A stretch of 64,000 nucleotides of DNA from Acidobacteriota bacterium (lineage in GTDB: Bacteria; Acidobacteriota; Vicinamibacteria; Vicinamibacterales; UBA2999): positions 2,187 through 66,186 of the forward strand of contig JADZCN010000020.1 of assembly GCA_020851565.1 (NCBI GenBank), read 5' to 3'. Position numbers and translations under genes: made by a program. The notes beneath the pieces are model-generated. The model did no database searches. It was not told the DNA's origin and saw only the letters and a list, made by a program, of their open reading frames with translations. This document shows positions 788-58,293 of this stretch, in pieces. Numbering within the stretch: the stretch's first letter is position 1; every line of letters begins with the position of its first letter.

Positions 788-867
788 TGGCGATTGGAGA
801 TTGATGATGGGGCGATTCAATGGGTGATTGTGGATTGAGGCATTGGGGAATTCAATTGGGCATTGGG
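788..867. repeat. GATTG/CATTGG-rich degenerate array (solitary arm of the 49.3-kb inverted-repeat family)
   Basis: cattggcgattggagattgatgatggggcgattcaatgggtgattgtggattgaggcattggggaattcaattgggcattggg. Low-GC island in the divergent gap, same word family as both arms of 49269-49545. Confidence 0.8.
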
Positions 868-956
868 CCATCGAACTGATGGACTGGCCGCTCCGGGCGT
901 AGTAGACTCTTGAGGCTTCCGTTGCACGGCTACCGTCTCCGCGGGGCAGACAAGCC

Positions 957-1838
957 ATGAATTTCCGTGTCCTTCTGGCACTGGCGGCCGTGCTCGTCTC
1001 GACGGCCCAGTGGTCGTCCGCGCAGGATCTCCCCACCCCGGGTGACTCGGCGGCTCCAGCCGCAGCCCCCACCACCACGCTCAATCCAGCACCGGCGCAG
1101 GATGCCACAGAACCGGGCGACCAGTCGCCAGCCCCGGTCGTACCCTCGGTGATCCCGGCGTCTCCGGGTGGCGGCGTCACGTTCGGGGCTCCTCAACCCG
1201 CCAACCCTTTCACCTCCGTCGCGCGCGACCTGAAGCGGTTCTTCTCACGGGACACCGCCGCGGTGATGGGCATCTTCGGACCGGCGGCGAGCACCGCGTA
1301 TCCGTGGGATCAGTCCGGCGTGCACGAGTCGCAGGAGCACCTGTCGAAGCGAGCCTTCGAGCCGGGTAACATCGCCGGGAGCTTCCTGGTCCAGACGGGC
1401 GCGGCGCTCGGCACGTGGGCCATCGGCAAGGCGTCCGGACACCAGAAGATCACCGCGGTCGGCAGCGACCTGTTCCGCGCGCAGATCGTGTCGCAGGCCG
1501 TTGTGCAGGCCGGAAAGATGGCGACGGGACGCGCGCGCCCTGACGGCAGCGATGGCCGGGCATTCCCGTCGGGCCACACGGCCAGCGCGTTCGCCATGGC
1601 CTCGGTGCTCGATCGCCACTTCGGGAAGAGGGCCGCTATTCCGAGCTACGCCTTTGCCACCTACGTGGCGCTGGCGCGTCTCTCCGCCAACAAGCACCAC
1701 ATCAGCGACGTCCTCGTCGGCGCCGGCATCGGCATCGCCGCCGGGCGCACGGTCACGATGGGCCTCGCCGGCGCGAAGTTCGACATGGGCGTCGCGCCAA
1801 CGCAGGGCGGCGCGGCCGTCAACTTCACCAGGCGCTGA
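957..1838 (+). CDS. PAP2 family phosphatase, exported
   Basis: Signal peptide MNFRVLLALAAVLVSTAQWSSA. PAP2 motifs PSGH (FPSGHTASAF) and SANKHHISDV. Confidence 0.85.
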   Translation: MNFRVLLALAAVLVSTAQWSSAQDLPTPGDSAAPAAAPTTTLNPAPAQDATEPGDQSPAPVVPSVIPASPGGGVTFGAPQPANPFTSVARDLKRFFSRDTAAVMGIFGPAASTAYPWDQSGVHESQEHLSKRAFEPGNIAGSFLVQTGAALGTWAIGKASGHQKITAVGSDLFRAQIVSQAVVQAGKMATGRARPDGSDGRAFPSGHTASAFAMASVLDRHFGKRAAIPSYAFATYVALARLSANKHHISDVLVGAGIGIAAGRTVTMGLAGAKFDMGVAPTQGGAAVNFTRR

Positions 1839-1850
1839 GAGAAAAGGAAC

Positions 1851-1884
1851 CACGAAGACTCGAAGAATCGCGAAGGGCACGAGG
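1851..1884. repeat. CACGAAG(A)-type short tandem array
   Basis: cacgaagactcgaagaatcgcgaagggcacgagg between convergent genes. Same word as 22978-22994 and 55144-55188. Confidence 0.7.
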
Positions 1885-1898
1885 AATTTGTTGGACGC

Positions 1899-3605
1899 CT
1901 ACTCGGCGATCGACTTCCAGCTCCGCACCAGGTGATCCGCAGTGCGCCAGGCCAGCGCCTGCAGGGTCAGCGTGGGATTGTGCGCGCCGCTCGTACCCAT
2001 GACGCTGCCGCCAAGGATGCCAAGGTTGGGCACCTCGTGTGAGAACCCCCACCGGTCGACGACGTTCGTCTCAGGGTTGTCGCCCATCCGCGTGCCGCCA
2101 TACGCATGCGTGTTCGGCCCCATTGTTCCCAGCGGCCCGCGGACGATGTCGATGGCGCCGGCGGCGCGGTACCAGGCCTCCATCTTGTCCTGGATGAAGG
2201 CGGCGATGCGGCGCTCGTTGTCGCGGTAGTCCGCCGTGATGCGCAACACCGGAAAGCCCAGCGGATCCCTCACCTCCGGATCGAGGTCCAGGTAGTTGGC
2301 CTCGTACGGCAGGGTGGTCTTCTGCAGGTAGGCGGTGTTGGCCCTGTCGGCGCTCTGGCGGATGAAGGCCTTCCACTGCGCGCCCCAGCCGGGCGCCCGC
2401 CCGAACGTGTTCATGTTGGCGGCCTGGATGGGCCGGCGATCCGAGTAGATCCAGAGGTTGCCGCCGCCGATGAAGTCCAGCCCCGCGTGATCGAAGTTGT
2501 CGTCCGCCCAGTCGTCGACGGCCACGCCCTGGGCGGGCAGCCCGTACCAGGTGTTCAGGTCGAACGGGAAGAGCGCGGTCACCGAGGCGCCGGTGGCGTG
2601 CGACAGATAGTGACGCCCCACCTGCCCGTGATTGTTCGAAAGGCCGTCCGGAAACGCCTTCGACTTCGAGAGCAGCAGCAGCCGCACGTTCTCGTAGACA
2701 TACGCGCCCAGCAGGACGACGCGGGCCGGCTGCACGAACTCCTGGCCATCGGTGACATAGCGCACGCCGGACACGCGCCCGCGCGCGTCCACGTCGATGG
2801 TCGTGACGTGCGCGCGCGTGACCACGCGGAAGCGGCCGGTCTTCTGCGCGCGCGGGATGGTCGTGACGTTGGTGCCGTTCTTGGCGTCCACATGGCACCC
2901 GCCGCGGTTGCAGTAGCCGTGGTACATGCACGGCGATCGGTCCTGGAACGTGCGCGAGTTGATCTGTGCCGGGCCCGGGAAGGGCCGCCATCCCAGGCCG
3001 CGCGCGGCGGCGGCCATGAGGTCGGTGAAGCCGGTGCCCCGGAGCGGCGGCATCGGGTACTCGCGTTGGCGCGGCCCCTCGAACACATTGCCGCGAAGGT
3101 CGAGTTCCCCCTTCAGGTTGCCCGCCTTGCCGGAGACGCCCGTCTCCCACTCGACCTTATCGTAGTAGGGCTCGAGCTCCTCGTAGCCGAACGGCCAATC
3201 CTCCACGGTGGACTCGGCGGGAATCCGCGCCCGCCCGTAGCGGCGCGTGGTCTCGCTGACCACCTTGAAGTCCCACGGATTCAGGCGCCAGCTCTGCGCC
3301 CAGTAGTGCAGCGTGGTCCCGCCTACGCCGTTCATCATCGGGTGGCTCGCCGCGCGCGTGGTTGGCGCGCTGGCGTTCGCGCGGTGCGTGGGCACCTCGT
3401 GGTTGGCCTTCTGCACGGCCTGCGGCCAGTCACGCACGTTGTTGCGGATCTCGTCGGGCGCGAAGTCGCGCCGCGTGAGCCAGGTGCCCGCCTCGAGCCC
3501 GACCACCTCGAGCCCGGCCTCGGCAAGCGGCAGGCACGCGATGCCGCCGGCGGCGCCCAGGCCGATGATGACGACGTCCGCGCCCTTCAGCGTCTGGGCC
3601 ATCAC
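1899..3605 (-). CDS. GMC family FAD-dependent oxidoreductase (gluconate 2-dehydrogenase flavoprotein-like)
   Basis: N-terminal FAD motif DVVIIGLGAAGG, 568 aa. GTG 3605 / ATG 3602 start overlaps the stop of the upstream small subunit gene. Confidence 0.9.
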   Translation of the reverse strand: MMAQTLKGADVVIIGLGAAGGIACLPLAEAGLEVVGLEAGTWLTRRDFAPDEIRNNVRDWPQAVQKANHEVPTHRANASAPTTRAASHPMMNGVGGTTLHYWAQSWRLNPWDFKVVSETTRRYGRARIPAESTVEDWPFGYEELEPYYDKVEWETGVSGKAGNLKGELDLRGNVFEGPRQREYPMPPLRGTGFTDLMAAAARGLGWRPFPGPAQINSRTFQDRSPCMYHGYCNRGGCHVDAKNGTNVTTIPRAQKTGRFRVVTRAHVTTIDVDARGRVSGVRYVTDGQEFVQPARVVLLGAYVYENVRLLLLSKSKAFPDGLSNNHGQVGRHYLSHATGASVTALFPFDLNTWYGLPAQGVAVDDWADDNFDHAGLDFIGGGNLWIYSDRRPIQAANMNTFGRAPGWGAQWKAFIRQSADRANTAYLQKTTLPYEANYLDLDPEVRDPLGFPVLRITADYRDNERRIAAFIQDKMEAWYRAAGAIDIVRGPLGTMGPNTHAYGGTRMGDNPETNVVDRWGFSHEVPNLGILGGSVMGTSGAHNPTLTLQALAWRTADHLVRSWKSIAE

Positions 3606-4270
3606 GCCTTGTTGAACAAGTCGGTGTCGTAGGCGGAGCGGCGCAGCGGAACCGGCCTTGCGCCGAGGCGCTGGTCATCCGGAGTCACGGCCGTCCTCAC
3701 GCCGGGATACCCGAGCATCGCCCATCCGACGAAGCCCTGGTTGCCACCGTAGTACGGGTCGCCAAAGGTGCCCTGCCACGTGTGGGCCTTGAGCATCGCG
3801 AAGAAGGCGGCGGAGCTGCCGTCGAATCCGGCGCCGGACGCGGTGGCGCCGCCGGTCTCGACGTCGATGAGCAGCGAGTCCTGGTCCGTGGGGGACAGCT
3901 CGCGGAACGGCTGCCCGCGCGAGAGCGTCGCGTACCGTTCGAGCGCCGCCAGGCCGCGGCGATACGCCTCGCGCGAAGAGGAGAGCGGCCCGGCGAGCGA
4001 TCGGTCGATGTAGGTGACGGCGCCGGCTTCCACCGCGCCGGGTCCGCTCGGGTCGGAGGGGATCAGGCGCGCCACGATGGCGGTGAGCAGATCCGCCTCG
4101 TCGGCGGTCAGCGCCTCGAGGGGTCGGCGCGGGGAGGACTGTTCGTGGAGCGACTCCGGGTGCGCCGCCGGTGCGGCGCCAGCGGGCAGCGCCGCGCGCT
4201 CGGCTCCCGCGGTGGCTGCGCCGGCAGCCGCCGCGCCTGCCACTTTCAGCAGATCGCGCCGCGAGATCAT
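3602..4270 (-). CDS. gluconate 2-dehydrogenase subunit 3 family protein (Tat signal)
   Basis: Start trimmed to MISRRDLLKVAGAAAAGAA (twin-arginine signal), 222 aa. Overlaps both neighbours by 1-4 nt, indicating an operon. Confidence 0.8.
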   Translation of the reverse strand: MISRRDLLKVAGAAAAGAATAGAERAALPAGAAPAAHPESLHEQSSPRRPLEALTADEADLLTAIVARLIPSDPSGPGAVEAGAVTYIDRSLAGPLSSSREAYRRGLAALERYATLSRGQPFRELSPTDQDSLLIDVETGGATASGAGFDGSSAAFFAMLKAHTWQGTFGDPYYGGNQGFVGWAMLGYPGVRTAVTPDDQRLGARPVPLRRSAYDTDLFNKA

Positions 4271-4839
4271 GGCTGTGGCGCAGGCTTGCGCTCGTAGATG
4301 GCGACGAGCTCGCCCTCTCCCACGATGTGGCCCTGGATGGCCTCGAGCAGCTCCCGTTTGGTGAGCCCGGGCTTCAGGTCGAGCACGGCATCGATCGCGT
4401 ACACCCTGAAGTGGTAGTGGTGCGGCTTGCCGGGCGGCGGCGCGGGGCCACGATAGATGGGACGACGGAAGCCCGAGGTGCCCTGAACGGCGCCCGCGAT
4501 CTCCGCGGGCATCGGTGTCGCCGGATCGATGGGGATGTTCTCGGGTAGCCCGGTGGCGGTGCCGGGGATCTTGTAGATGACCCAGTGCACGAACGGCTGC
4601 GGCATCGGCACGTCGGGGTCGTCGCAGATGACGGCGAACTCCCTGGTGGACGCCGGCGCGCCGGACCACTGCAGCGGCGGCGAGATGTTGCGGCCGTCCG
4701 CGGTGTAGTCCCTGGGGATCGTCTCCCCAGCCTTGATGGCGGGGCTGGTGACGATGAGCGATTGCGGTGCCCGGGCCTCCCCCGCGAGGACGACGGCGAG
4801 GGTTCCCACGACGACAAGCAGCAGGTGCCGCCGGTTCAT
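4267..4839 (-). CDS. YbhB/YbcL family Raf-kinase-inhibitor-like (PEBP) protein, exported
   Basis: Signal peptide MNRRHLLLVVVGTLAVVLAG. PEBP motifs DPDVP, HWVIY, GPAPPPGKPHHYHFRVYAID. Confidence 0.85.
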   Translation of the reverse strand: MNRRHLLLVVVGTLAVVLAGEARAPQSLIVTSPAIKAGETIPRDYTADGRNISPPLQWSGAPASTREFAVICDDPDVPMPQPFVHWVIYKIPGTATGLPENIPIDPATPMPAEIAGAVQGTSGFRRPIYRGPAPPPGKPHHYHFRVYAIDAVLDLKPGLTKRELLEAIQGHIVGEGELVAIYERKPAPQP

Positions 4840-4871
4840 GCGGCAGAGTATAGCGGTACAATCCGGTTGTC

Positions 4872-7207: not shown

Positions 7208-7233
7208 GAGCCGATCTGGGAACCCGCCTCCAC

Positions 7234-7253
7234 GGGCCCGACTTCGCGGGCCC
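7234..7253. terminator. GC hairpin between convergent genes
   Basis: GGGCCCG-acttcg-CGGGCCC, a 7-bp stem directly between the stop codons at 7207 and 7254. No clear U-tract. Confidence 0.4.
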
Positions 7254-10039: not shown

Positions 10040-10052
10040 TCGGAGATCATAC

Positions 10053-10093
10053 GGGTCTTGGGGTCTTGAGGTCTTGGGGTCTTGGGTCTTGGG
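10053..10093. repeat. GGGGTCTT-family tandem array (5 units)
   Basis: gggtcttggggtcttgaggtcttggggtcttgggtcttggg in the divergent gap, 14 nt from the decarboxylase ATG. Confidence 0.9.
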
Positions 10094-10158: not shown

Positions 10159-10815
10159 GTGAAGCATATGACTTGGGCGGTGGCAGCCGCTCTGGCGGTG
10201 GGGGTGGGCGCACACGTGCTCGGCGCGCAGGGCGCGGCGCAGGCGCATCCGCAAATGAGCTTCTTCATCACGAGCGCGGGCTCGGGCGACGGCGCCAACC
10301 TCGGCGGCCTCGCGGGCGCCGACGCGATTTGCCAGAACCTGGCGAAGGCGGTGGGCGCGGGTAACAAGCAGTGGCGCGCCTATCTCAGCACCCAGGGCGC
10401 CAACGCGGTGAACGCCAAGGACCGCATCGGCCCGGGCCCCTGGTTCAATTCGAAGGGCGTGCAGATTGCGGCCAACGTGGCGGAACTGCACTCCGACAAG
10501 AACAACCTGACGAAGGAGACACAGCTTACCGAGAAGGGCACCGTCGTGAACGGGCGCGGCGACACGCCGAACCAGCACGACATCCTGACGGGCTCGAACC
10601 TGGATGGCACTACGTTCCCGGCCGGCGAGGACCACACGTGCAACAACTGGACGAGCAACAGCACCGGTTCGGCGCAGGTGGGCCATCACGACCGCCAGGG
10701 GGGCGGCGCCAACCCGACCTCCTGGAACAACGCGCACGCCTCGAAGGGCTGCAGCCAGCAGAACCTGATCGCGACCGGCGGCAACGGCTACTTCTACTGC
10801 TTCGCGGTGAAGTAG
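10159..10815 (+). CDS. secreted 4-Cys protein with endostatin-like (collagen XV/XVIII C-terminal, C-type-lectin-fold) landmark pattern
   Basis: AGGAGG at 10146-10151, GTG 10159 (ATG 10168 alternative). Signal peptide MTWAVAAALAVGVGAHVLGAQG. Landmarks GLAGADAICQ...WRAYLS, TCNNWTS, GCSQ, YFYCFAVK. Confidence 0.6.
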   Translation: MKHMTWAVAAALAVGVGAHVLGAQGAAQAHPQMSFFITSAGSGDGANLGGLAGADAICQNLAKAVGAGNKQWRAYLSTQGANAVNAKDRIGPGPWFNSKGVQIAANVAELHSDKNNLTKETQLTEKGTVVNGRGDTPNQHDILTGSNLDGTTFPAGEDHTCNNWTSNSTGSAQVGHHDRQGGGANPTSWNNAHASKGCSQQNLIATGGNGYFYCFAVK

Positions 10816-10911
10816 GGGCTTGGGGCTTGGGGCTTGGGACTTGGGAACTGGGACATTGGTCCCAAGACTCAGGGCCCAAGACCCAAGTCCCAAGTCCCAA
10901 GACTCAAGACC
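10815..10911. repeat. palindromic GGGGCTTG / CAAGTCCC array (imperfect long hairpin, likely bidirectional terminator)
   Basis: G-rich units 10815-10860 meet their reverse complement 10861-10911 around GGGAC-ATTG-GTCCC. Spans exactly from the stop at 10813-10815 to the stop at 10904-10906. Confidence 0.85.
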
Positions 10912-11287: not shown

Positions 11288-11375
11288 GGTTCTGGGGTTC
11301 TGGGGTTCTGAAGTTCTCGGGTTCTCGGGTTCTCAGGTTCTCAGGTTCTCAGGTTCTCGGGTTCCCGGGTTCTGG
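11288..11375. repeat. GGTTCTSR 8-mer tandem array (11 units)
   Basis: ggttctgg ggttctgg ggttctga agttctcg ggttctcg ggttctca ... begins at the base next to the ridA ATG. Confidence 0.9.
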
Positions 11376-11398: not shown

Positions 11399-11473
11399 CC
11401 CCAAGATCTCAAGACCCCAGGACCTCAAGTCCCCAACCCAAGCCCCATGTCGCACGTCCCAAGCCCCACGTCC
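11399..11473. repeat. CCCAAGAC-family (reverse complement of GGGGTCTT) degenerate array
   Basis: ccccaagatctcaagaccccaggacctcaagtccccaacccaagcccc...cccaagcccc ends at the stop codon of the 11474 gene. Confidence 0.85.
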
Positions 11474-20151: not shown

Positions 20152-21879
20152 ATGAGAAGTGACATGAAGATGCGTTTGAACCAGGTATCCGTGTGCGCCG
20201 CAATGGCGCTCCTGGCCGGCTGCAGCAGCCAGCCGCAGGTTGAACCCGCCAGCCTCGTGCTCCGCAACGGCATCATCGTCACGGTCGAGGCGAGCCAGCC
20301 GAAGGTGCAGGCCCTCGCCGTGCGCGGGGATCGAATTGTGGCTCTCGGCACGAACGACGAGATCCAGCCATACGTGGGGCCGGAGACGAACGTCATCGAT
20401 CTGGCGGGCCAGACCGCCGTGCCCGGGTTCATCGAATCGCACGGGCATTTCATGGGCCTCGGGCAGTCGCGCATGGTGCTCGACCTGATGGACGTGAAGA
20501 GCTTCGACGAGATCGTCCAGCTGGTGGCCGAGGCGGTGAAGACGGCGAAGCCGGGCCAATGGATCCAGGGACGTGGATGGCACCAGGAGAAGTGGACCTC
20601 GGTGCCCTCGCCCAACGTGGAGGGCTTCCCCGTTCACGACGCGCTCAGCAAGGTCTCACCCGACAATCCGGTGATCCTCGAGCACGCGAGCGGCCACGCG
20701 GTGTACGCGAACGCGAAGGCCATGGAGCTGGCCGGCGTGACGGCGCGTACGCCGAACCCGCCCGGCGGCGAGATCCTGAAGGACCGGGCCGGGCGGCCCA
20801 TCGGGGTGTTCCGCGAAACGGCATCGGGGCTGGTCGAAAAGGCGCTCGACGTCTGGCAGGCGGCAAAGACGCCCGAGGAGCGCGCGGCCGACGCGCGTCG
20901 GCAGATCGAGCTCGCCACGGAGGAGGCCTTCTCGAAGGGCGTGACCAGCTTCCAGGACTCGGGCTCGAGTCTCGACACCGTGGCCCTTTTCAAGCAGGTG
21001 GCCAGCGAAGGCCAGATGGGCATCCGACTGTGGGTGATGGTGCGCGACACCAACGAGCGGCTGCGCGAGCGGCTGGCGAAGGAGAAGGTGGTGGGCATGG
21101 CCGATAACCACCTGACGGTGGCGGCCATCAAGGTCACCGCCGACGGCGCGCTCGGCTCGCGCGGCGCGTGGCTGCTGGAGCCGTACGCCGACTCGCCCGG
21201 CAGCACCGGCCTGAACACCACGCCGATGGCGAGTATCGAGGAGACGGCGAAGATCGCGGCCGAGACCGGCACGCAGCTCTGCATCCACGCCATTGGCGAC
21301 CGCGCCAATCGCGAGGTGCTGAACGTCTACGAGGCGACGTTCAAGGCCAATCCGGACAAGAAGGACCTGCGGTGGCGCATCGAGCACGCGCAGCACCTCA
21401 ACGCGGCCGACATCCCGCGCTTCGGCCAGCTGGGCGTCATCGCCGCCATGCAGGGCATCCACTGCACGTCGGACGCGCCGTACGTGACGGCGCGCCTGGG
21501 TGCCGCCCGCGCCGAGGAAGGCGCCTACGTCTGGCAGAAGCTGATGAAATCCGGCGCCATCATCGCCAACGGCACCGACACGCCGGTGGAGCGCGTGGAC
21601 CCCATCGCCAGCTACTATGCCAGCGTGACGCGGAAGGCCGCCGACGGCACCGTGTTCCACGGCGACCAGAAGATGTCGCGCGAAGAGGCGCTCAAGTCGT
21701 ACACGTGGAATGCAGCGTACGCGGCGAAGGAAGAGACGCTGAAGGGCTCGCTGGCCGTGGGCAAGCTGGCCGACATCGCCGTGCTCTCGAAGGACATCCT
21801 CACGGTGCCGGACGACGAGGTTCCCACTACGAAGGTGACCCGCACGATCGTGGGTGGGAAGGTGGTGTACGGGCAGTAG
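20152..21879 (+). CDS. amidohydrolase family protein (YtcJ-like), lipoprotein
   Basis: Lipobox AMALLAGCSS. Metal motif PGFIESHGHF. 575 aa. Confidence 0.85.
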   Translation: MRSDMKMRLNQVSVCAAMALLAGCSSQPQVEPASLVLRNGIIVTVEASQPKVQALAVRGDRIVALGTNDEIQPYVGPETNVIDLAGQTAVPGFIESHGHFMGLGQSRMVLDLMDVKSFDEIVQLVAEAVKTAKPGQWIQGRGWHQEKWTSVPSPNVEGFPVHDALSKVSPDNPVILEHASGHAVYANAKAMELAGVTARTPNPPGGEILKDRAGRPIGVFRETASGLVEKALDVWQAAKTPEERAADARRQIELATEEAFSKGVTSFQDSGSSLDTVALFKQVASEGQMGIRLWVMVRDTNERLRERLAKEKVVGMADNHLTVAAIKVTADGALGSRGAWLLEPYADSPGSTGLNTTPMASIEETAKIAAETGTQLCIHAIGDRANREVLNVYEATFKANPDKKDLRWRIEHAQHLNAADIPRFGQLGVIAAMQGIHCTSDAPYVTARLGAARAEEGAYVWQKLMKSGAIIANGTDTPVERVDPIASYYASVTRKAADGTVFHGDQKMSREEALKSYTWNAAYAAKEETLKGSLAVGKLADIAVLSKDILTVPDDEVPTTKVTRTIVGGKVVYGQ

Positions 21880-21950
21880 GTTCAAAGCCCAGGGGTTCAA
21901 AGCACGGGAGTTCAAAGCACGTGGGTTCCAAGCCCGTGGTTCGAAGCACG
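21879..21950. repeat. 14-mer GGTTCRAAGCMCG tandem array (5 units)
   Basis: ggttcaaagcccag gggttcaaagcacg ggagttcaaagcacg tgggttccaagcccg tggttcgaagcacg fills the gap from the stop at 21877-21879 to the ATG at 21951. The reverse complement family is at 46908-46960. Confidence 0.9.
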
Positions 21951-22964: not shown

Positions 22965-23017
22965 CGAGTCACCGGAACACGAAGAGCACGAAGATCCCCC
23001 GAGGGCGATCTACGCGC

Positions 23018-37113: not shown

Positions 37114-37185
37114 CCCCCTGATCCCTGATCCCTGATCCCTGATCCCTGATCCCTGACCCCTGACCCCTGACCCCTGCCCCTGACC
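37114..37185. repeat. CCCTGAT/CCCTGAC 7-mer tandem array (~10 units), G-rich on the transcribed (minus) sense
   Basis: ctgatcc x5, ctgaccc x3, ctgcccc, ctgacc. Fills the intercistronic gap between the two HEAT genes. Confidence 0.9.
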
Positions 37186-40128: not shown

Positions 40129-40224
40129 GGGGCGTGGGGTCTTGGGGCTTGGGGTCTTGGGGTCTTGGGGTCTTGGGGTCTTGGGGTCTTGAGGTCTTGA
40201 GGTCTTGAGGTCTTGAGGTCTTGG
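40129..40224. repeat. GGGGTCTT / GAGGTCTT 8-mer tandem array (~11 units)
   Basis: ggggtctt ggggctt ggggtctt x5 gaggtctt x4. G-rich on the plus strand, upstream of the ECF sigma gene. Confidence 0.9.
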
Positions 40225-40322
40225 AGGCCTGGGTCCTAGTCCACCCGGACCGGACGGAGAAGGCATCGGTCCGGCCGGGTGTCCTGCGGGGGCACGGCGG
40301 TTCCTGGTCAAAAGCGAACGAT

Positions 40323-40483: not shown

Positions 40484-40546
40484 GACCCCAGGACCCCAAG
40501 ACCCCAAGACCTCAAGACCCCAGGCCCCCAGGACCCCAGGACCTCA
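40484..40546. repeat. CCCAAGAC / CCCAGGAC array (reverse complement family of 40129-40224)
   Basis: gaccccaggaccccaagaccccaagacctcaagaccccaggcccccaggaccccaggacctcag. Confidence 0.9.
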
Positions 40547-40567
40547 GTCCCGCACTATGATCACGCA

Positions 40568-41117: not shown

Positions 41118-41191
41118 CCCCCTGCCCCCTGAACCCTGGCCCCTTGCCCCCCTGACCCCTGATCCCTGATCCCTGATCCCTGATCCCTGCC
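41118..41191. repeat. CCCTGAT/CCCTGNC 7-mer array
   Basis: cccctgccccctgaaccctggccccttgcccccctgacccctgatccctgatccctgatccctgatccctgcc between convergent genes. Same family as 37114-37185. Confidence 0.9.
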
Positions 41192-44358: not shown

Positions 44359-44464
44359 TGGGTTCTCAGGTTCTGGGGTTCTGGGGTTCTGGGGTTCTGG
44401 GGTTCTGGGGTTCTCGGGTTCTCGGGTTCTGGGGGTCTTGGGCCTTGAGGCCTTGAGGTCTTGG
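44359..44464. repeat. GGGGTTCT / GGGTTCTC array merging into GGGTCTTG / GGCCTTGA units (~13 units)
   Basis: gggttctcaggttct ggggttct x5 cgggttct x2 gggggtcttgggccttgaggccttgaggtcttgg, 18 nt upstream of the otsB ATG. Confidence 0.9.
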
Positions 44465-46907: not shown

Positions 46908-46960
46908 TTCGTGCTTTGAACGTCCGTGCTTCGAACGCCCGTGCTTCGAACCTCCGTGCC
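46908..46960. repeat. 14-mer CGTGCTTCGAACNC tandem array (3.5 units)
   Basis: ttcgtgctttgaacgtccgtgcttcgaacgcccgtgcttcgaacctccgtgcc. Reverse complement of the 21879-21950 family. Confidence 0.9.
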
Positions 46961-49265: not shown

Positions 49266-49268
49266 CGC

Positions 49269-49545
49269 CCATTGGCGATTGCCGATTGACGATTGAGCGA
49301 TTCACTGATGATTGAGTGATTGGGGCATTGCGCATTGGGATTGGAGCATTGAGCGATTGGGGAATTGCGGGATTCGGGATTCCCGTCCGGCGAACCCGTC
49401 GAGTCGCGACGTTGTCGGGCGCCAGCGCGACGAGCACCCGAATCACACAATCGCTCAATCACTCAATTGCCCAGTCCAATGCGCAATGCCCCAATCACTC
49501 AATCGTCAGTGAATCGCTCAATCGGCAATCGTCAATCACCAATGG
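49269..49545. repeat. 277-nt long inverted repeat (two ~109-nt GATTG-rich arms, 58-nt GC-rich centre)
   Basis: Left arm 49269-49378 versus the reverse complement of 49437-49545. The first ~70 nt differ at about 5 positions (ccattggYgattg...gattggggcattgcgcattgg). Both arms end in gattcggg. Confidence 0.9.
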
Positions 49546-49560
49546 ACGTGCTCCCGACAG

Positions 49561-51920: not shown

Positions 51921-51968
51921 TTCACTTCTGACGCCTCACTTCTGACGCCTCACTTCTCATTTCTCACG
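51921..51968. repeat. 14-mer CTCACTTCTGACGC tandem repeat (about 3 units)
   Basis: ttcacttctgacgcctcacttctgacgcctcacttctcatttctcacg between convergent genes. Overlaps the xth stop codon. Confidence 0.85.
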
Positions 51969-52731: not shown

Positions 52732-52810
52732 CGATCCGCTCTCCTCTGCGACATGTTGGCTACGACCCTGGCGCGTCCGACGGGCTGACGGCCCGCTCGC
52801 GGCGCGGGAC

Positions 52811-52883
52811 GCCGCCCACCGCGCCGCCAGCGCGGCCCACGGTGCGAAGCGCCGCCCACCCGCGGCCCACGCGCGAAGCGCGC
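52811..52883. repeat. GC-rich degenerate spacer repeat (GCCGCCCACC / CGCGGCCCAC / GCGAAGCGC words, 2 units)
   Basis: gccgcccaccgcgccgccagcgcggcccacggtgcgaagc gccgcccacccgcggcccacgcgcgaagcgcgcc. The 16-mer GCGAAGCGCCGCCCAC (52844-52859) recurs inverted at 18375-18390. Confidence 0.75.
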
Positions 52884-53965: not shown

Positions 53966-53970
53966 GATAC

Positions 53971-54010
53971 GGGAGTCGGGAGTCGGGAGTCGGTCGACGC
54001 GAGTCGGGAG
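53971..54010. repeat. GGGAGTC 7-mer tandem array
   Basis: gggagtcgggagtcgggagtcggtcgacgcgagtcgggag, 6 nt upstream of the MBL start codon. Confidence 0.85.
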
Positions 54011-55134: not shown

Positions 55135-55143
55135 CCGGAAAAC

Positions 55144-55336
55144 AAAACCACGAAGACACGAAGGGCTACGAAGGACACGAAGACTACGTCTCAACAGAAC
55201 CCGGGAACCTCAGAACCCGGGAACCTCAGAACCCGGGAACCTCAGAACCCGAGAACCCGAGAACCCGAGAACCCCAGAACCTAGGACCCTTGTCTTTCTT
55301 GGGGCCGTCCTCGTGTCCTTCGTGTCGTCGTGGTTT
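55144..55336. repeat. composite spacer: inverted CACGAAG arrays flanking a GAACCC array
   Basis: 55144-55188 aaaaccacgaagacacgaagggctacgaaggacacgaagactacg. 55197-55281 (GAACCCGGGAACCTCA)x3 then (GAACCCGA)x3. 55307-55336 gtcctcgtgtccttcgtgtcgtcgtggttt is the reverse complement of the left array. Confidence 0.9.
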
Positions 55337-55338
55337 CC

Positions 55339-57363
55339 CTATTTCCTCACCCCTGAGTACTCGAGCATCTGCGTCGTCAGGTCCATCGGATAGGAGATGG
55401 TGACGTCGGTGATCTGACCGTCCGGCCCCGTGACCGGCGTCAGCTTCGGCATCACGAAGCCGGAGTAGGACGGGAGGTCCAGCTTGTCCACGCGCGCCAC
55501 GACCTCGTCGCGCACCTTGGGGTCGAAGTGTACGCCGTGGGCCTCGAAGAGGTCCCGCGCGGCGGCGTAGTCACCCTCGGACTTGATGCGCTGCACCTCG
55601 GCGAGGAGCCGGCCGACGCCCTCGCGGAACGCGGCTGGATCGACCATCACGAGGTAGGTCTTGCCGTCGCGCGTGCGCTGCTCGATCGCCTTCGTGTTGG
55701 CCATCAGCCACCGGACGATCATCTGCCGGTTGCGCATGTGGTCCTCCTCGATCTGCGTGCCCTCGCGGATGCGGCGCAGCTGCACCAGCGCGTTGCGGGT
55801 GTAGGCCTCGTACTCCGCGCGCACGACGGCGTCGTGATCCGCGGCCGGAATGATGCCCAGCTCCACCAGCTTCGGATCCGCGATGAAGTACAGCCCCACC
55901 AGATCGGCACGGCCCTCCTCGAGCGCGGAGAAGTGTTCCTTGATGAGCGCCTGCGGCGCCGCCTTGCCCTCGGCCTGGCGGCCCGAGGCGTGCCCGATCA
56001 CCTCGTGCATGTCGGTGGTGAGCGCCGAGGCGAATGCCCCGAACTTCGCGGACCGCTCCACTTCCTCGGGCGTCCACGAGAACTCGCCGCGCATGGAACC
56101 CGGCGTGGACTGATCGTACGCCTCGATCACGTTCGACAGCGCCACCGACTTGCTGCCGTACTTCTCGCGGATGGCCTGGTCGTTCGGCAGGTTGATGCCG
56201 ATCGGCGTCACCGGGCCGGAATCCCCCGTCTCCACCACCACGTCAATCGCGTTGGCGACGATGCCCTGGACGCTGGGCTTCCGGTACTTCGCGTCCCACG
56301 GCATGCGGTCCTCGAACCACTGCGCGTTGGCCGCGAGGGTCTTGATGCGGGCCGTCTTCTCCTGGTTCACGTAGTAGACCAGGCCCTCCCAGCTGCCCTT
56401 GATGCCGCGCGGGTCCATGTAGACCTCGATAAATCCGTTGATGGTGTCCACCGGCGAGTCCTTGTCCTGCACCCACGCGATGTCGAACTGCTCGCGATCG
56501 CGCACCTCGCCCGTCCGGTAGAAGCGCACGAGTGACGCCAGGGCCCTGACCATCGGCTCGGGAGCGTACGGCTGCGCGTTCTCCAGGTGCGCGATGATCT
56601 CGCTTATCTGCTTCCCGTACAAGCCGTCGGCCTTGTAGACCTCCTCGACGAGCTTGCCGTTGCGCATCACCAGGCGCGAGTTCAGGCCGTACTGCTCCCT
56701 GAAGCCCTCGAGATCCGCCATCGACACCCCGGCGTAGAGGTTGTTGGCGCTGGCCTGCAGGATGTCCCGGCCCGCCCCGGGATTCTTGTTGGTGACGATG
56801 GGGTCCACGTTCGGGTCGAAGAACATCGGCCCGAGCCGCGCGAGCATGGTATCGAGCGTCTCGCCGGCCGGCGTGGCGAACGTCGCACCCGCGGTCGCCG
56901 AGGCCTTCGCGGCCGCGAGGAAGGCGTCGGGCGTGCACTTCAGCACGAACTTGCGCGCGGTGAGGTTGTTGTAGGGCCCGTTGTTCAGCCAGAAGAGCTT
57001 CGTGTAGCGCTGAATCTCGGCCAGCGTGGCCGGATCCACGCCGGCGGGGTGGGCGACGATTTGGTCCAGCACGCCGCGCATCTCGAGCGCGCTCGGGTGC
57101 TTCTGGTCGATGAAGATGTCGCGTCCCGCCAGGGCGGCCTGGTAGAGGTGCCAGACGAGGATCTTCTGCTGAAGGGGGAGGGAGCTGAACCCGTCCGCAT
57201 ACAGCTGCACCACCGCCGCGTCGTCCACGCGTTCGAGCAGGTACGTGCGGTCCGCGGTGGAGCTGGCGGCAGGAGCGTTGGACGCCGGGAGCTCGGTGGG
57301 CGCCGGGTTGGAGCACGCGGACGCCAGGAGGGCGGCCGCGAGGATGACGGCAGTGACTCGCAT
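55339..57363 (-). CDS. M49 (dipeptidyl-peptidase III-like) zinc peptidase, lipoprotein
   Basis: Lipobox AALLASACS. Zinc motifs HEVIGH and EEGRAD. 674 aa. Confidence 0.8.
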   Translation of the reverse strand: MRVTAVILAAALLASACSNPAPTELPASNAPAASSTADRTYLLERVDDAAVVQLYADGFSSLPLQQKILVWHLYQAALAGRDIFIDQKHPSALEMRGVLDQIVAHPAGVDPATLAEIQRYTKLFWLNNGPYNNLTARKFVLKCTPDAFLAAAKASATAGATFATPAGETLDTMLARLGPMFFDPNVDPIVTNKNPGAGRDILQASANNLYAGVSMADLEGFREQYGLNSRLVMRNGKLVEEVYKADGLYGKQISEIIAHLENAQPYAPEPMVRALASLVRFYRTGEVRDREQFDIAWVQDKDSPVDTINGFIEVYMDPRGIKGSWEGLVYYVNQEKTARIKTLAANAQWFEDRMPWDAKYRKPSVQGIVANAIDVVVETGDSGPVTPIGINLPNDQAIREKYGSKSVALSNVIEAYDQSTPGSMRGEFSWTPEEVERSAKFGAFASALTTDMHEVIGHASGRQAEGKAAPQALIKEHFSALEEGRADLVGLYFIADPKLVELGIIPAADHDAVVRAEYEAYTRNALVQLRRIREGTQIEEDHMRNRQMIVRWLMANTKAIEQRTRDGKTYLVMVDPAAFREGVGRLLAEVQRIKSEGDYAAARDLFEAHGVHFDPKVRDEVVARVDKLDLPSYSGFVMPKLTPVTGPDGQITDVTISYPMDLTTQMLEYSGVRK

Positions 57364-57465
57364 CCGTCAAGTGTAACGGGGACTGGCGCCGGGCCGTCGG
57401 AGAAGGCTCCGGGCGGGGGAACGGCGGTAGATCAGGACCGTGGGGTGCGGCAGAATGACAGAACC

Positions 57466-58224
57466 GTGATCGCCACCCTGCTGCTCGTCCTCGCCAGTCC
57501 CGCCGCCGACGCGACTTTACAATTGTCACAGGGACTGTCCCTGTCACAGTTCGTCACCGGGCTGCAGCAGGCGGCTTCGCGCAACGACCGCCGCGCGGTG
57601 GCCGCGATGATGCGCTATCCGCTCGACGTGACCGCGGCGGGCCTGCAGATTCCCGTCGCGGACGCCCGGGCCTTCGAGAGCCTCTACGACTCGATCATGA
57701 CGCCGGCGATGAAGGCCGTGATCGCGCGCGCGCGTGTGCCCGCCGACGACAAGCCGCGCCCCGACGTCATCAGGCTCCAGGGCGGCGGCATCGCATTCGA
57801 GAACGCCCTGACCATTTCGCCGGTTGCCGGCGGATTCAAGGTAACGCGGCTGGCGGTGCCCGTGACGCCTGCCTCCGGCGGGACCGCCGCCGGCGCAGCC
57901 ACGCCGCGACGCCTCACGTTCCGCGTCGGACGGCCCACACAGGTCAGCGGCTCGCTCGATCCCGGCGGGACGGACCGCTACGAGTTCCACGCCGCGCAGG
58001 GCGCTTTTCTCGACGTGCGGCTCACCGGCGTGCCCGGGCGCTCAGTCCTCATCCGCATGCTGGACAGCAAGACCGGCAAGCCCGTGGACGCACGCGCCGA
58101 CACGGGCACGCGGGTGTGGACCGGGCGCGTGAGCGCAACGTCCACGTACACCATCGAGGTGGCGCGGCAGTCGGACTCGGGCACCGGGACGCTCATCTAT
58201 ACGCTGGCGGTGGGGATCAAATAG
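57466..58224 (+). CDS. hypothetical exported protein with PPC-like C-terminal beta-sandwich
   Basis: GTG 57466 (alternative GTG 57445). Signal IATLLLVLASPAADA. C-terminal GSLDPGGTDRYEFHAAQGAFLDVRLTG resembles pre-peptidase C-terminal domains. Confidence 0.55.
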   Translation: MIATLLLVLASPAADATLQLSQGLSLSQFVTGLQQAASRNDRRAVAAMMRYPLDVTAAGLQIPVADARAFESLYDSIMTPAMKAVIARARVPADDKPRPDVIRLQGGGIAFENALTISPVAGGFKVTRLAVPVTPASGGTAAGAATPRRLTFRVGRPTQVSGSLDPGGTDRYEFHAAQGAFLDVRLTGVPGRSVLIRMLDSKTGKPVDARADTGTRVWTGRVSATSTYTIEVARQSDSGTGTLIYTLAVGIK

Positions 58225-58293
58225 GTTCTCGGGTTCTCGGGTTCGGGGGTTCTCGGGTTCTCGGGTTCTCGGGTTCGGGGGTTCGGGGGTTCC
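58224..58293. repeat. GGGTTCTC / GGGGGTTC tandem array (~9 units)
   Basis: ggttctcgggttctcgggttcgggggttctcgggttctcgggttctcgggttcgggggttcgggggttccc starts at the stop codon. Confidence 0.9.

What the first reader, a model, noticed from the sequence alone, without database searches (positions are those of the whole stretch)
788..58293. Most intergenic spacers are built from degenerate 7-16 nt tandem arrays of a few recurring families, many matching the G-quadruplex consensus
At least 20 of the roughly 45 intergenic gaps are filled nearly wall-to-wall by imperfect head-to-tail arrays, and the units recur. GGGGTCTT/GAGGTCTT occurs at 10053-10093, 10815-10860, 40129-40224 and 44431-44464, with its reverse complement at 10861-10911, 11399-11473 and 40484-40546. 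GGGTTCTC/GGGGTTCT occurs at 11288-11375, 44359-44430 and 58224-58293, with its reverse complement at 55197-55281. CCCTGAT/CCCTGAC occurs at 37114-37185 and 41118-41191. GGGAGTC occurs at 53971-54010. CACGAAG occurs at 1851-1884, 22978-22994 and 55144-55188, with its reverse complement at 55307-55336. The 14-mer GGTTCRAAGCACG occurs at 21879-21950, with its reverse complement at 46908-46960. GATTG-rich sequence occurs at 788-867 and 49269-49545. Arrays typically start within 0-20 nt of a stop or start codon and almost never extend into genes. The first four families place G3-5 runs 3-5 nt apart on one strand. This satisfies (G>=3 N1-7)x4 repeatedly, for example seven consecutive GGGG-TCTT units from 40136, with an i-motif-capable complement. 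The G-rich strand is sometimes the sense strand and sometimes the antisense strand of the flanking genes. I do not recognise this as a described element class. Possible roles are structured (G4 or hairpin) terminators or insulators, slippage-prone contingency tracts, or a proliferating non-autonomous repeat family.
Basis: seen in the sequence. Interest (0 to 1): 0.75.

Follow-up and report, generated by a model that had tools for sequence, protein, structure and literature searches.

The report
Fast-evolving short tandem repeats between genes
About a third of the gaps between genes in this soil acidobacterium carry rapidly changing arrays of 7-9-base (or 14-16-base) repeats, a dense new example of a repeat class already described in Xanthomonas and cyanobacteria whose function is still unknown.

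Summary
"Most spacers" is overstated. TRF finds arrays in 15 of 51 spacers (about 19 with weak ones), and 9 are at least 58% filled. Only 9 of 24 arrays are good G-quadruplex candidates, so G4 is not the unifying feature.

The window comes from an uncultured Vicinamibacterales bacterium (Acidobacteriota). Relatives carry arrays in the same spacers, but with different copy numbers and drifting units. Genomes encoding identical flanking proteins carry different alleles, while an array-free spacer is conserved. This is slippage-type turnover of long-unit simple sequence repeats.

The class is already described: GGGAATC and GGGGA(C/T)T heptamers in Xanthomonas and Nostoc (Rehm 2015). It shares this window's signature. 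The G-rich strand reads away from the nearest gene (12:1 here). Paired arrays are inverted with the G arm first (21:1 across phyla).

Three spacers form very stable hairpins. One is conserved in four genomes and one is followed by a U-run, so these are probably terminators.

Verdict: a dense, multi-family new member of a known but functionally unexplained kind.

The parts
788..867 (+). Degenerate GATTG-rich array, G-rich on +. It abuts the start codon of the - strand gene 299-787.
   Evidence: Seen in sequence. Below the TRF threshold. G4Hunter 0.96.
1851..1884 (.). Degenerate CACGAAG array of about 4 units in a convergent spacer.
   Evidence: Seen in sequence. Not reported by TRF.
10053..10093 (+). 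GGGTCTTG x5.2, 13 nt upstream of the start of - strand gene 8627-10039. A TATGAT -10-like box is kept between the array and the ATG.
10815..10860 (+). GGGGCTT/GGGACTT x6.3. It starts at the stop codon of + gene 10198-10815 and is the 5' arm of a hairpin.
   Evidence: PQS. The spacer folds with z -9.1.
10861..10911 (-). CCCAAGA x7.3. It overlaps the stop codon of - gene 10904-11287 (RidA family) and is the 3' arm of the same hairpin.
11288..11375 (+). GGTTCTSR x10.8. It directly abuts the ATG of - gene 10904-11287. Variant units lie in contiguous blocks.
   Evidence: D1.
11399..11473 (-). Degenerate CCCCAAGA-type array abutting the stop of - gene 11474-12724.
   Evidence: D8. G4Hunter -1.33.
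21879..21950 (+). 15-mer GGTTCRAAGCACGNG x4.9. It fills the whole gap between the stop at 21879 and the ATG at 21951. Relatives L004 and L006 have overlapping stop and start codons here and no array.
22978..22994 (.). Two copies of CACGAAGAG. A weak site.
   Evidence: Not a TRF array.
37114..37185 (-). CCCTGAT x6 then CCCTGAC x3. It abuts the stop of - gene 37187-38395. It is G-rich in the sense RNA.
   Evidence: PQS. Orthologous arrays have 2-5 copies or a drifted unit.
40129..40233 (+). GGGGTCTT x5 then GAGGTCTT x4 (11.4 units). Left member of an inverted pair, upstream of - gene 39497-40084.
40484..40547 (-). GACCCCAR x8. Right member of the inverted pair, 20 nt upstream of + gene 40568-41080, just before a TATGAT -10-like box.
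41118..41191 (-). CCCCTGA/CCCTGAT x9.9, abutting the stop of - gene 41194-41880.
   Evidence: Relatives carry 2-3 units.
44359..44464 (+). GGGTTCTG x10.4 running into GGTCTTGA-type units. It lies 17 nt upstream of the start of - gene 43556-44341 (trehalose phosphatase).
   Evidence: A genome with the identical 261-aa protein has only about 3 units.
46908..46960 (-). 15-mer CGTGCTTCGAACNNC x3.3, the reverse complement of the 21879 family. It lies in the sense orientation between two - strand genes.
49266..49383 (+). GATTG-rich arm, the 5' arm of a hairpin with a stem of about 115 bp between convergent genes.
   Evidence: dG -197 kcal/mol, z -18.8. Inverted pair I3, 93% complementary. The hairpin is conserved in L259, L260 and L081.
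49441..49548 (-). CAATC-rich arm, the 3' arm of the same hairpin. It lies next to the stop of - gene 49561-50112.
51922..51967 (-). TCACTTC / TCACTTCTGACGCC array overlapping the stop of - gene 51964-52731.
   Evidence: Orthologues carry 1 to 8 units.
53970..54010 (+). GGGAGTC x5.9, upstream of - gene 52886-53896.
   Evidence: L259 has 7 units and L260 has 2.
55144..55188 (.). CACGAAG array. On the - strand it is the 3' arm of a hairpin and is followed by UUUUGUUUU.
   Evidence: z -4.75. L260 has only this hairpin.
55195..55281 (-). CAGAACCCGGGAACCT x3 then GAGAACCC x3. It sits in the loop of the CACGAAG hairpin, downstream of the M49 peptidase gene 55339-57363. It is absent in L259 and L260.
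   Evidence: (D11).
55307..55336 (.). CTTCGTG-type array. On the - strand it is the 5' arm of the hairpin.
58224..58293 (+). GGTTCTCG/GGTTCGGG x8.6, starting at the stop codon of + gene 57466-58224.
   Evidence: Short-read contigs end inside it.

Best explanation
The arrays are long-unit simple sequence repeats with units of 7, 8 or 9 nt, or 14-16 nt doubles. They belong to the same class as the cyanobacterial STRR heptamers and the Xanthomonas GGGAATC repeats. Here they occur at unusually high density and in several unit families, in an uncultured Vicinamibacterales genome.

Origin and turnover (shown by comparison). Units are gained, lost and homogenised in place by replication slippage or unequal exchange. 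This is much faster than the surrounding DNA changes. Arrays accumulate only where indels that are not multiples of three are harmless. They therefore fill spacers up to the first constrained base: a stop codon, a start codon or a -10-like box.

Orientation filter (the pattern is shown, the cause is inferred). The G-rich strand reads 5'->3' away from the nearest gene. RNA leaving a gene is therefore G/U-rich and can form structure or G4. RNA or polymerase entering a gene meets a C/A-rich, G-poor, unstructured tract. Two arrays in one spacer form an inverted pair with the G arm first.

Effect (inferred). Most arrays are probably tolerated by-products. The palindromic ones, and perhaps G-rich trailers in general, serve as transcript-end or insulator structures in a genome that has almost no canonical hairpin-plus-T-run terminators.
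For: Class and position:
- Periods are 7 (42 arrays), 8 (29), 9 (20) and 13-16 (16) among 112 intergenic arrays.
- Intergenic enrichment is 67-fold. The shuffle expectation is 0.4 rows against 31 observed.

Turnover:
- The 37115 array has 10 copies in the window, 2 in L003 and 5 in L001. The unit drifts CCCTGAT -> CCTGATT -> CCCGACT in L040 and L002.
- The 44360 array is GGGTTCTG x10 here, GGTCTTG x4 in L003 and GGGGCTT x4 in L002.
- Further examples are at 51922, 53970 and 55195.
- Genomes encoding identical flanking proteins carry different alleles.
- The array-free spacer 47893-48125 keeps its length (226-237 nt, part of L081 being masked) and visibly most of its sequence in the same genomes.
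- Variant units lie in contiguous blocks, for example GGGGTCTT x5 then GAGGTCTT x4, and CCCTGAT x6 then CCCTGAC x3.
- One array sits exactly where relatives have overlapping stop and start codons.

Orientation:
- In the window the rule holds 13:1 (p=0.002).
- With filters it holds 31:9 overall (p=7e-4) and 19:8 in relatives.
- Adjacent related arrays are inverted 31 times and direct 3 times. Skewed inverted pairs are G-first 21:1 (p=1e-5), across several phyla.
- The same rule and the same pairs were published for Xanthomonas and Nostoc (PMC4692102).

Structure:
- Hairpins at 49266 (z -19 to -20), 10816 (z -9) and 55135 (z -5 to -6, followed by a U-run).
- The 49266 hairpin is kept in four genomes although the arm sequences differ.
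- The C-rich strand of the 44342 spacer is less structured than shuffles (z +2.4).
- Canonical terminators: 2 found against 5.3 expected in 20 kb, and both lie inside genes.

Not an artefact:
- Arrays occur in long-read MAG contigs (L007, L013, L038, L043, L044).
- Independent short-read contigs reproduce the array edges before breaking.
Against: - Pure slippage from random seeds does not explain why the same few units occupy many unlinked spacers. It also does not explain the 15-mer family, which appears at different spacers in the window and in L003, always in the sense orientation.
- Presence is patchy. L004, L006 and L008 (82-85% identical in the marker protein) have no arrays in 22 kb each. 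Some lineage-specific factor is therefore involved and has not been identified.
- The cause of the strand rule is inferred only. The rule is equally strong (about 2:1) at gene starts and gene ends. That fits a single cause independent of gene orientation better than two separate RNA-level selections.
- Only 3 of 17 array-bearing spacers fold better than shuffles, so a terminator role cannot be general.
- No transcript data were available.
Confidence: 0.7

Rival explanations
1. The arrays are selected transcription insulators or terminators as their main purpose. A G-rich trailer followed by a C-rich arm forms a hairpin. The C-rich, G-poor arm also acts as a Rho loading site for any polymerase about to enter the neighbouring gene. 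The arrays would replace the canonical terminators that this genome lacks.
For: - Three spacers form exceptional hairpins, one with a U-run.
- The 49266 hairpin is structurally conserved in four genomes despite arm divergence.
- The G-first architecture holds 21:1 across phyla.
- Canonical terminators are scarce.
- Arrays sit 0-50 nt from stop codons.
Against: - Most arrays are single and not structured (median z -0.9 against -0.5 for other spacers).
- Close relatives do without them entirely (L004, L006, L008; 42-nt array-free ortholog of the 55135 spacer in L259).
- Arrays also lie between co-directional, formerly overlapping genes, where termination would be harmful.
- No RNA data are available. 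The Rho part is pure inference.
Confidence: 0.3
2. The arrays are G-quadruplex (and i-motif) regulatory elements. G4 formation is the property under selection.
For: - Nine arrays meet the G4 consensus and have G4Hunter |score| >=1.2.
- PQS are depleted in coding DNA and concentrated in arrays.
- Related Xanthomonas and Nostoc units fold into G4 in vitro and show a preference for four units (PMC4692102).
- The modal copy number here is 4, but this is limited by the detection threshold.
Against: - 15 of 24 window arrays, and more than half of the arrays in relatives, are not G4-capable. Examples are GATTG, CACGAAG, TCACTTC, TGATCTAT, CACAGAGA and TTCTAGA.
- These non-G4 arrays share the same periods, positions and inverted-pair architecture. 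AT-rich pairs such as AATTAAG/TTAATTC do so too.
Confidence: 0.1
3. The arrays are a proliferating non-autonomous mobile element family (MITE- or REP-like), or are copied between loci by an active mechanism.
For: - The same unit families recur at unlinked spacers.
- The 15-mer family occupies different spacers in the window and in L003, and occurs in another MAG.
- An array has appeared between formerly overlapping genes.
- Inverted GGGGTCTT arrays flank a variable toxin-antitoxin cassette.
Against: - There are no conserved ends, terminal inverted repeats or target-site duplications, and flanks differ at every copy.
- Length is unconstrained (3-14 units).
- Units drift gradually in place at orthologous sites.
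- Identical units occur in unrelated phyla, with lineage-specific unit choice. This fits convergence better than transfer.
Confidence: 0.08
4. The arrays are contingency loci that switch neighbouring genes on and off by slippage (phase variation).
For: Arrays are hypervariable in copy number. Some lie directly upstream of start codons or next to -10-like boxes.
Against: - Neighbouring genes are housekeeping or metabolic: RidA, PLP enzyme, peptidases, trehalose synthesis, haem A synthase.
- Arrays lie as often downstream of stop codons.
- They are excluded from reading frames.
- The same conclusion was reached for Xanthomonas and Nostoc.
Confidence: 0.05
5. The arrays are assembly artefacts.
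For: Short-read contigs regularly end inside the arrays.
Against: - The same array edges appear in many independent samples.
- Shorter alleles are spanned by contigs (L081, L185).
- Arrays occur in long-read contigs of relatives and in cultured isolates of other phyla.
Confidence: 0.01

Closest known systems
G-rich heptamer simple sequence repeats GGGAATC (Xanthomonas) and GGGGA(C/T)T (Nostoc PCC 7120), Rehm et al. 2015, PMC4692102
   Same: - Head-to-tail short units, strongly intergenic.
- 2-26 units, with length and sequence variation between related species at the same spacers.
- The nearest ORF lies 5' of the G strand, within about 50 nt, whatever the ORF's orientation.
- Frequent inverted pairs.
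- No link to surface or virulence genes.
- G4-capable units.
   Different: - Several coexisting unit families, with octamers as common as heptamers, plus 9-mers and 14-16-mers.
- Many families are not G-rich.
- Density is about ten-fold higher: about 24 arrays in 64 kb against 186 in a genome of about 5 Mb (size from my own knowledge).
- Stems reach about 115 bp.
- The phylum is different (Acidobacteriota).
- Rehm et al. reported increased local stability of gene order. That was not assessed here.
Cyanobacterial STRR (short tandemly repeated repetitive) heptamers. Mazel et al. 1990 is cited from my own knowledge. The Calothrix heptamers are cited as ref. 39 in PMC4692102.
   Same: Multiple heptamer families in one genome, tandem, intergenic, and of unknown function.
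   Different: Different units and a different phylum. The STRR literature I could read does not give the strand rule or the palindromic arrangement.
TAACTGA direct repeats of Beggiatoaceae, cyanobacteria and Bacteroidetes, MacGregor 2015, PMC4679880
   Same: Intergenic heptamer arrays that often lie within a few nucleotides of a start codon. They are found in scattered phyla with no evident transfer mechanism.
   Different: A single AT-rich unit, mostly 2-6 copies, proposed as binding sites for a translational regulator. The arrays here lie at both gene ends and come in many units. A test for loss of Shine-Dalgarno motifs next to arrays was not significant.
REP / MITE-type dispersed intergenic elements
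   Same: Intergenic, repeated many times per genome, and often hairpin-forming.
   Different: REP and MITE copies have a defined length and conserved ends. These arrays have neither. A genuine REP-like hairpin element does occur separately in the window (34975, 36236, 38560).
Intrinsic (Rho-independent) terminators, including bidirectional ones between convergent genes
   Same: The 55135-55338, 10816-10903 and 49266-49560 spacers place a strong hairpin just after stop codons. The first of these has a U-run.
   Different: Stems of 40-115 bp built from repeats. Most arrays have neither a partner arm nor a U-run.

Membership tests
Intergenic long-unit SSRs (Rehm-type G-rich heptamers / STRR) | Head-to-tail copies of a 7-nt (6-9-nt) unit, at least 2 units | tested here: met
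   TRF finds periods 7, 8 and 9 with 3-14 copies.
Intergenic long-unit SSRs (Rehm-type G-rich heptamers / STRR) | Strong over-representation in non-coding DNA | tested here: met
   18% of intergenic bases against 0.27% of coding bases. Arrays inside genes mostly have periods that are multiples of 3.
Intergenic long-unit SSRs (Rehm-type G-rich heptamers / STRR) | Nearest ORF lies on the 5' side of the G-rich strand, within about 50 nt, irrespective of ORF orientation | tested here: met
   Window 13:1. Filtered: 31:9 overall, 12:1 in the window, 19:8 in relatives.
Intergenic long-unit SSRs (Rehm-type G-rich heptamers / STRR) | Frequent inverted pairs, one array on each strand | tested here: met
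   31 inverted against 3 direct adjacent pairs. G-first 21:1.
Intergenic long-unit SSRs (Rehm-type G-rich heptamers / STRR) | Same spacers occupied in related genomes, but with different length and sequence | tested here: met
Intergenic long-unit SSRs (Rehm-type G-rich heptamers / STRR) | Each unit carries a G3+ tract, so that 4 units can fold into a G4 | tested here: inconclusive
   True for 9 of 24 arrays and not for the other families. Folding itself cannot be tested with these tools.
Intergenic long-unit SSRs (Rehm-type G-rich heptamers / STRR) | Arrays are transcribed | not testable with these tools
   No transcriptome data were available.
MITE / REP mobile elements | Defined length with conserved termini or terminal inverted repeats, and target-site duplication | tested here: not met
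   Flanks differ at every copy and length is unconstrained.
Phase-variable contingency loci | The SSR lies inside an ORF or between promoter elements of surface or host-interaction genes, so that unit number switches expression | tested here: not met
   Arrays are excluded from ORFs. The neighbours are metabolic genes. An effect of promoter spacing was not tested.
Intrinsic terminators | A stable GC-rich hairpin directly followed by a U-run, downstream of a stop codon | tested here: inconclusive
   Met at 55135-55338. There is a hairpin without a U-run at 10816 and 49266. It is not met by the remaining array-bearing spacers. The consensus scan finds no terminator in spacers of 1-20000.
CRISPR arrays | Repeats of 23-50 nt separated by unique spacers of similar length | tested here: not met
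   Units are 7-16 nt and contiguous, with no spacers.

The most novel reading that the evidence does not exclude
The strand rule is independent of gene orientation: the G strand always reads away from the nearest gene, and inverted pairs are always G-arm first. It holds from Acidobacteriota to Bacteroidota, and it holds for non-G4 units. This may reflect one undiscovered general mechanism rather than neutral slippage.

One version is functional. The arrays would be a widespread orientation-dependent insulator system. Outgoing RNA would be a structured, C-poor trailer. Incoming RNA would be a G-poor Rho-loading tract. The arm pairing would be kept by selection.

The other version is mutational. 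A polar process of repeat addition or loss at spacer DNA would also spread lineage-specific unit families to new spacers. Examples here are the 15-mer inserted between overlapping genes and the arrays bracketing a swappable toxin-antitoxin cassette.
Probability: 0.15. Interest if true: 0.7.

Novelty: new member of a known kind. Interest (0 to 1): 0.38.

Why it matters
Intergenic 7-nt-class tandem repeats are the most abundant periodic DNA in prokaryotic spacers. Their function is openly acknowledged as unknown (PMC6344855).

This lineage shows them at about ten times the published density, in several families at once. That makes the turnover, the strand rule and the arm pairing easy to measure.

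There is also a practical consequence. The arrays break short-read assemblies at every locus checked. MAGs of such lineages are therefore fragmented exactly at gene boundaries, and the repeats are under-reported.

The same GGGGTCTT arrays, in the same G-first paired form and abutting start codons, occur in cultured Hymenobacter species. This gives an experimental route that the uncultured source organism does not.

Tried and rejected
- **Exact-protein look-ups.** Look-ups for strain variants found nothing for three flanking genes. Four others succeeded, but most contigs end inside the arrays, so copy-number polymorphism could be read at only two loci.
- **Rfam.** No family matched anywhere in the window.
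- **Literature.** A search for Vicinamibacter plus tandem repeats returned nothing relevant. The octamer sequence itself appears in no relevant paper.
- **Canonical promoter and terminator scan.** Nothing was found in spacers of 1-20000. A second call failed on a range limit and was not repeated.
- **Is GGGGTCTT special across bacteria?** The composition-matched control GGGGTTTC is also widespread (62 loci). I therefore dropped the idea of a unique unit. Only the lineage-specific choice of unit stands.
- **Do array-abutted genes lack Shine-Dalgarno motifs?** 2 of 14 carry one, against 114 of 394 controls. This is not significant (p=0.37), and my start-codon calls are rough.
- **General hairpin hypothesis.** It was rejected for most arrays.
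- **L003 neighbourhood.** I tried to recover the region beyond the end of locus L003, to decide whether its 12-unit 15-mer array is orthologous to 46908-46960 or a new insertion. The last genome scan did not return that MAG.
- **Gene calls.** They are my own codon-usage caller. Stop codons are reliable. Start codons are approximate.

Full report
**1. What is there**

- I called genes with a codon-usage model trained on the window's long ORFs.
- Arrays of period >=5 with >=3 copies cover 18% of intergenic bases (1263 of 6934). They cover 0.27% of coding bases (155 of 57066).
- Block-shuffled windows give 0.4 such TRF rows against 31 observed.
- The single strong array inside a gene (54530-54661) has period 9/18/27. 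It encodes an in-frame acidic repeat of a CxxCxxCC-domain protein.
- Over the window plus 80 related loci, 35 of 43 arrays inside genes have periods that are multiples of three. Only 28 of 112 intergenic arrays do.
- Intergenic periods are 7 (42 arrays), 8 (29), 9 (20) and 13-16 (16).

- 15 of 51 spacers hold a TRF-detectable array, and about 19 do if weak sites seen by eye are counted.
- Nine spacers are at least 58% covered.

**2. The G-quadruplex claim**

- The consensus (G>=3 N1-7)x4 is met 15 times in the window. This is fewer than in shuffles (28 +/- 5).
- Ten of the 15 lie in the 11% of DNA that is intergenic, and nine are in arrays.
- G4Hunter |score| reaches 1.2 for 9 of 24 arrays.
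- The GATTG, CACGAAG, TCACTTC and 15-mer families are not G4-capable.
- In relatives, more than half of the arrays are not G-rich at all. Their units include TGATCTAT, CACAGAGA, CAATCGG and TTCTAGA.

G4 potential is therefore a property of a subset, not the organising principle.

**3. Source and relatives**

A peptidase gene in the window finds Vicinamibacterales (Acidobacteriota) MAGs at up to 96% amino-acid identity, with conserved gene order. Array content is lineage-specific and patchy.
- It reaches 25% of intergenic DNA in many of the closer loci.
- It is zero in three relatives at 82-85% identity (L004, L006, L008).
- It is essentially zero in more distant, closed long-read Vicinamibacterales genomes and in outgroups.
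- Arrays are present in long-read MAG contigs (L007, L013, L038, L043, L044).

Short-read contigs that carry exactly the same flanking proteins end inside the arrays at four different loci. Their sequence up to the break was read at two of these loci and matches the window there. The arrays are real, and they fragment short-read assemblies.

**4. Turnover**

Orthologous spacers in genomes about 87-93% identical in the flanking genes keep an array but change it.
- The 37115 array has 10 units here, 2 in L003 and 5 in L001. The unit drifts from CCCTGAT through CCTGATT to CCCGACT in L040 and L002.
- The 44360 array is GGGTTCTG x10 here, GGTCTTG x4 in L003 and GGGGCTT x4 in L002.

Further examples come from the second set of loci.
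- GGGAGTC has 5, 7 or 2 units.
- TCACTTC has 3, 1 or 8 units.
- The 204-nt spacer at 55135 is 42 nt with no array in L259. It is 88 nt in L260, which has only the CACGAAG hairpin.

By contrast, the array-free divergent spacer 47893-48125 keeps its length (226-237 nt, with part of L081 masked) and visibly most of its sequence in the same genomes.

At the strain level:
- A contig encoding the identical 261-residue trehalose phosphatase has about three units where the window has fourteen.
- Contigs encoding the identical 183-residue methyltransferase carry either a 128-nt or a 295-nt version of the 49266 palindrome.

Within arrays, variant units lie in contiguous blocks. All of this is the signature of slippage or unequal exchange with concerted evolution.

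At 21880 the array fills the whole gap between a stop and a start codon. In L004 and L006 these codons overlap or abut (TGAGTG, TGATG). Arrays can therefore appear where there was no spacer at all.

**5. Position and strand rule**

Arrays end at the first constrained base. This may be the stop codon (10815, 58224, 37187, 41194), the start codon (11287, 787, 21951), or a TATGAT -10-like box a few bases before an ATG (10041-10052, 40548-40567).

- The G-rich strand reads 5'->3' away from the nearest gene. The count is 13:1 in the window (p=0.002).
- With filters for skew and distance it is 31:9 overall (p=7e-4) and 19:8 in relatives alone.
- The bias is about 2:1 both downstream of stops (G in the sense strand) and upstream of starts (C in the sense strand).
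- A test that needs no gene calls gives the same picture. Adjacent arrays of related units are inverted 31 times and direct 3 times. Among skewed inverted pairs the G-rich arm comes first 21 times to 1 (p=1e-5). This includes Hymenobacter, Thermoanaerobaculia and cyanobacterial loci, and AT-rich units such as AATTAAG/TTAATTC.

**6. Structure**

- Three array-bearing spacers fold far better than shuffles: 49266-49560 (stem of about 115 bp, -197 kcal/mol, z about -19), 10816-10903 (z -9) and 55135-55338 (z -5 to -6).
- All three lie just after stop codons.
- The 55135-55338 hairpin is followed on the sense strand by UUUUGUUUU.
- The 49266 hairpin is kept in four genomes (z -10 to -19), although the arms differ in sequence and length.
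- The other array spacers are no more structured than array-free ones.
- The C-rich strand of the 44342 spacer is less structured than random (z +2.4).
- Canonical hairpin-plus-T-run terminators are rarer than in shuffles, and none lies in a spacer of the first 20 kb.
- No Rfam family matches anywhere.

**7. Comparison with what is known**

Rehm et al. (PMC4692102) described GGGAATC repeats in Xanthomonas and GGGGA(C/T)T repeats in Nostoc. They reported:
- 89-93% of repeats are intergenic.
- Repeats have 2-26 units.
- 70-75 repeat sites per genome lie in inverted pairs.
- There is no link to surface genes.
- G4 forms in vitro, the repeats are transcribed, and the function is unknown.

Other relevant reports:
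- Mori et al. [quoted passage not shown]
- MacGregor (PMC4679880) described TAACTGA heptamer arrays just upstream of start codons in Beggiatoaceae, cyanobacteria and Bacteroidetes.
- A Nostoc preprint reports modest, unexplained effects of heptamer repeats on reporter expression.

The window meets every testable defining feature of this class. It differs in four ways.
- It has several coexisting families, including octamers, 9-mers and 14-16-mers.
- Many units are not G-rich.
- Density is about ten-fold higher: about 24 arrays in 64 kb, against 186 in a genome of about 5 Mb (size from my own knowledge).
- The palindromes are very long.

It fails the tests for MITE/REP elements, since there are no conserved ends. 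It also fails the tests for CRISPR and for contingency loci, since the neighbours are RidA, a PLP enzyme, peptidases, trehalose synthesis genes and haem A synthase.

**8. Spread of unit families**

The loci come from Vicinamibacterales, Thermoanaerobaculia, Hymenobacter isolates, Streptomyces, Paraburkholderia, Paenibacillus and others. Several loci often come from one genome.
- In Hymenobacter algoricola, a (GGGGTCTT)x4 array abuts the start codon of a gene, and its (CCAAGACC)x4 partner lies 95 nt away.
- The composition-matched control (GGGGTTTC)x3 is also widespread (62 loci). It occurs in other lineages and in no Vicinamibacterales.

G-rich octamer arrays are therefore pan-bacterial, and each lineage amplifies its own few units.

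How a lineage spreads one unit to many spacers is not explained by simple slippage.
- The 15-mer family GGTTCRAAGCAC sits at two unlinked operon junctions in the window.
- L003 has a third site, with about 12 units, where the window has no array.
- The family also occurs in another MAG.
- Where the flanking genes are known (the two window sites and the two L003 sites) it lies in the sense orientation.

I could not establish whether the L003 site is a new insertion or a rearranged ortholog.

**9. Best explanation and its limits**

- *Shown.* These are hypervariable long-unit SSRs. They are confined to DNA where frameshifting indels are tolerated. They obey the published strand rule. A few are built into large hairpins that are conserved in structure.
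- *Inferred.* The strand rule is a selective filter at the RNA or transcription level. Structured, C-poor RNA would leave genes. Unstructured, G-poor RNA, which could load Rho, would enter them. The palindromic arrays would end transcripts in a genome without canonical terminators.
- *Unexplained.*
  - The cause of the rule. Its equal strength at gene starts and ends hints at a single cause independent of gene orientation.
  - The lineage-specific bursts.
  - The inter-locus spread of unit families.
  - Why arrays are absent from some close relatives.

**10. Verdict**

The G4 and 'new class' interpretations are only partly right. This is a dense, multi-family new member of a known, widespread and functionally unexplained repeat class. 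Interest is moderate. It would rise if the strand rule turned out to reflect a general insulator function or a polar mutational process.

Noticed in passing
window 34975-35007, 36236-36268, 38560-38592; 38618-38675: A separate REP-like dispersed element, the hairpin CGCCGGGGCTGAAGCCCCGGCG followed by CTCCGTAC. It occurs three times within 4 kb, with a 22-nt tandem GGCGCTCCGTACTCGCCG-type array beside the third copy. The spacer 34913-35062 folds with z about -8.
   Followed up: partly
window 40225-40483; L001 3274-3947 (- strand of locus): The inverted GGGGTCTT / CCCCAAGA arrays bracket a variable cassette. L001 has an intact PhdYeFM antitoxin plus a PIN-like toxin (the PIN match, 20.3 bits, is below Pfam's 23.6-bit cut-off). 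The window has only the first ~40 codons of the antitoxin. L003 has a different, GNAT-toxin-like fragment (by eye). L004 and L007 have neither cassette nor arrays (64-66 nt spacer).
   Followed up: partly
window 21877-21953 versus L004 and L006: A 71-nt array (104 nt in L003) lies exactly between a stop and a start codon that overlap or abut (TGATG, TGAGTG) in two relatives. A translationally coupled gene pair has been pushed apart by an array. In L003 some units contain a copy of the gene's last 9 nt, including the stop codon.
   Followed up: yes
window 54530-54661, inside gene 54055-55134 (-): An in-frame 9/18/27-nt repeat encodes an Asp/Ala/Glu-rich stretch in a CxxCxxCC-domain protein. It is the only strong tandem array inside a gene in the window.
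   Followed up: partly
L083-L089, L186-L193, L256-L258: Public short-read (Logan) contigs that carry the window's exact proteins stop inside the arrays at four different loci. Such repeats systematically fragment short-read assemblies and will be under-counted in MAGs.
   Followed up: yes
window 47893-48125: This 233-nt divergent spacer has no array. Its length (226-237 nt, part of L081 masked) and most of its sequence are kept in three related genomes. It is a candidate regulatory region. There is no Rfam match.
   Followed up: no
window 10041-10052, 40548-40567, 19230-19250, 44342-44358: -10-like boxes (TATGAT, TAGAAT, TACACT) lie 6-9 nt before start codons, which suggests leaderless mRNAs. 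Where an array is present it stops just upstream of the box. The C-rich strand of the GGTTCTG family reads CAGAAC, which resembles these boxes.
   Followed up: no
L092, L093, L116, L128, L129, L131, L154, L160, L176 (Hymenobacter and related loci): Cultured Hymenobacter species carry (GGGGTCTT)x4 ... (CCAAGACC)x4 inverted pairs 13-190 nt apart, always with the G arm first. A second paired family is TGGTGAGA / CTCACCAT. This offers a tractable model for the same architecture.
   Followed up: partly
window 48126-49265 and 62012-63253: Two paralogous genes, 72-82% identical over 300-nt stretches. The first is asparaginase-like (Asparaginase_2, annotated on its L081 ortholog).
   Followed up: no
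window 52802-52875: A GC-rich 19-nt/11-nt degenerate repeat (CGCCGCCCACC core) lies in a spacer. It is of a different kind from the 7-9-nt arrays. It is partly conserved in L259, and the spacer is absent in L260.
   Followed up: no
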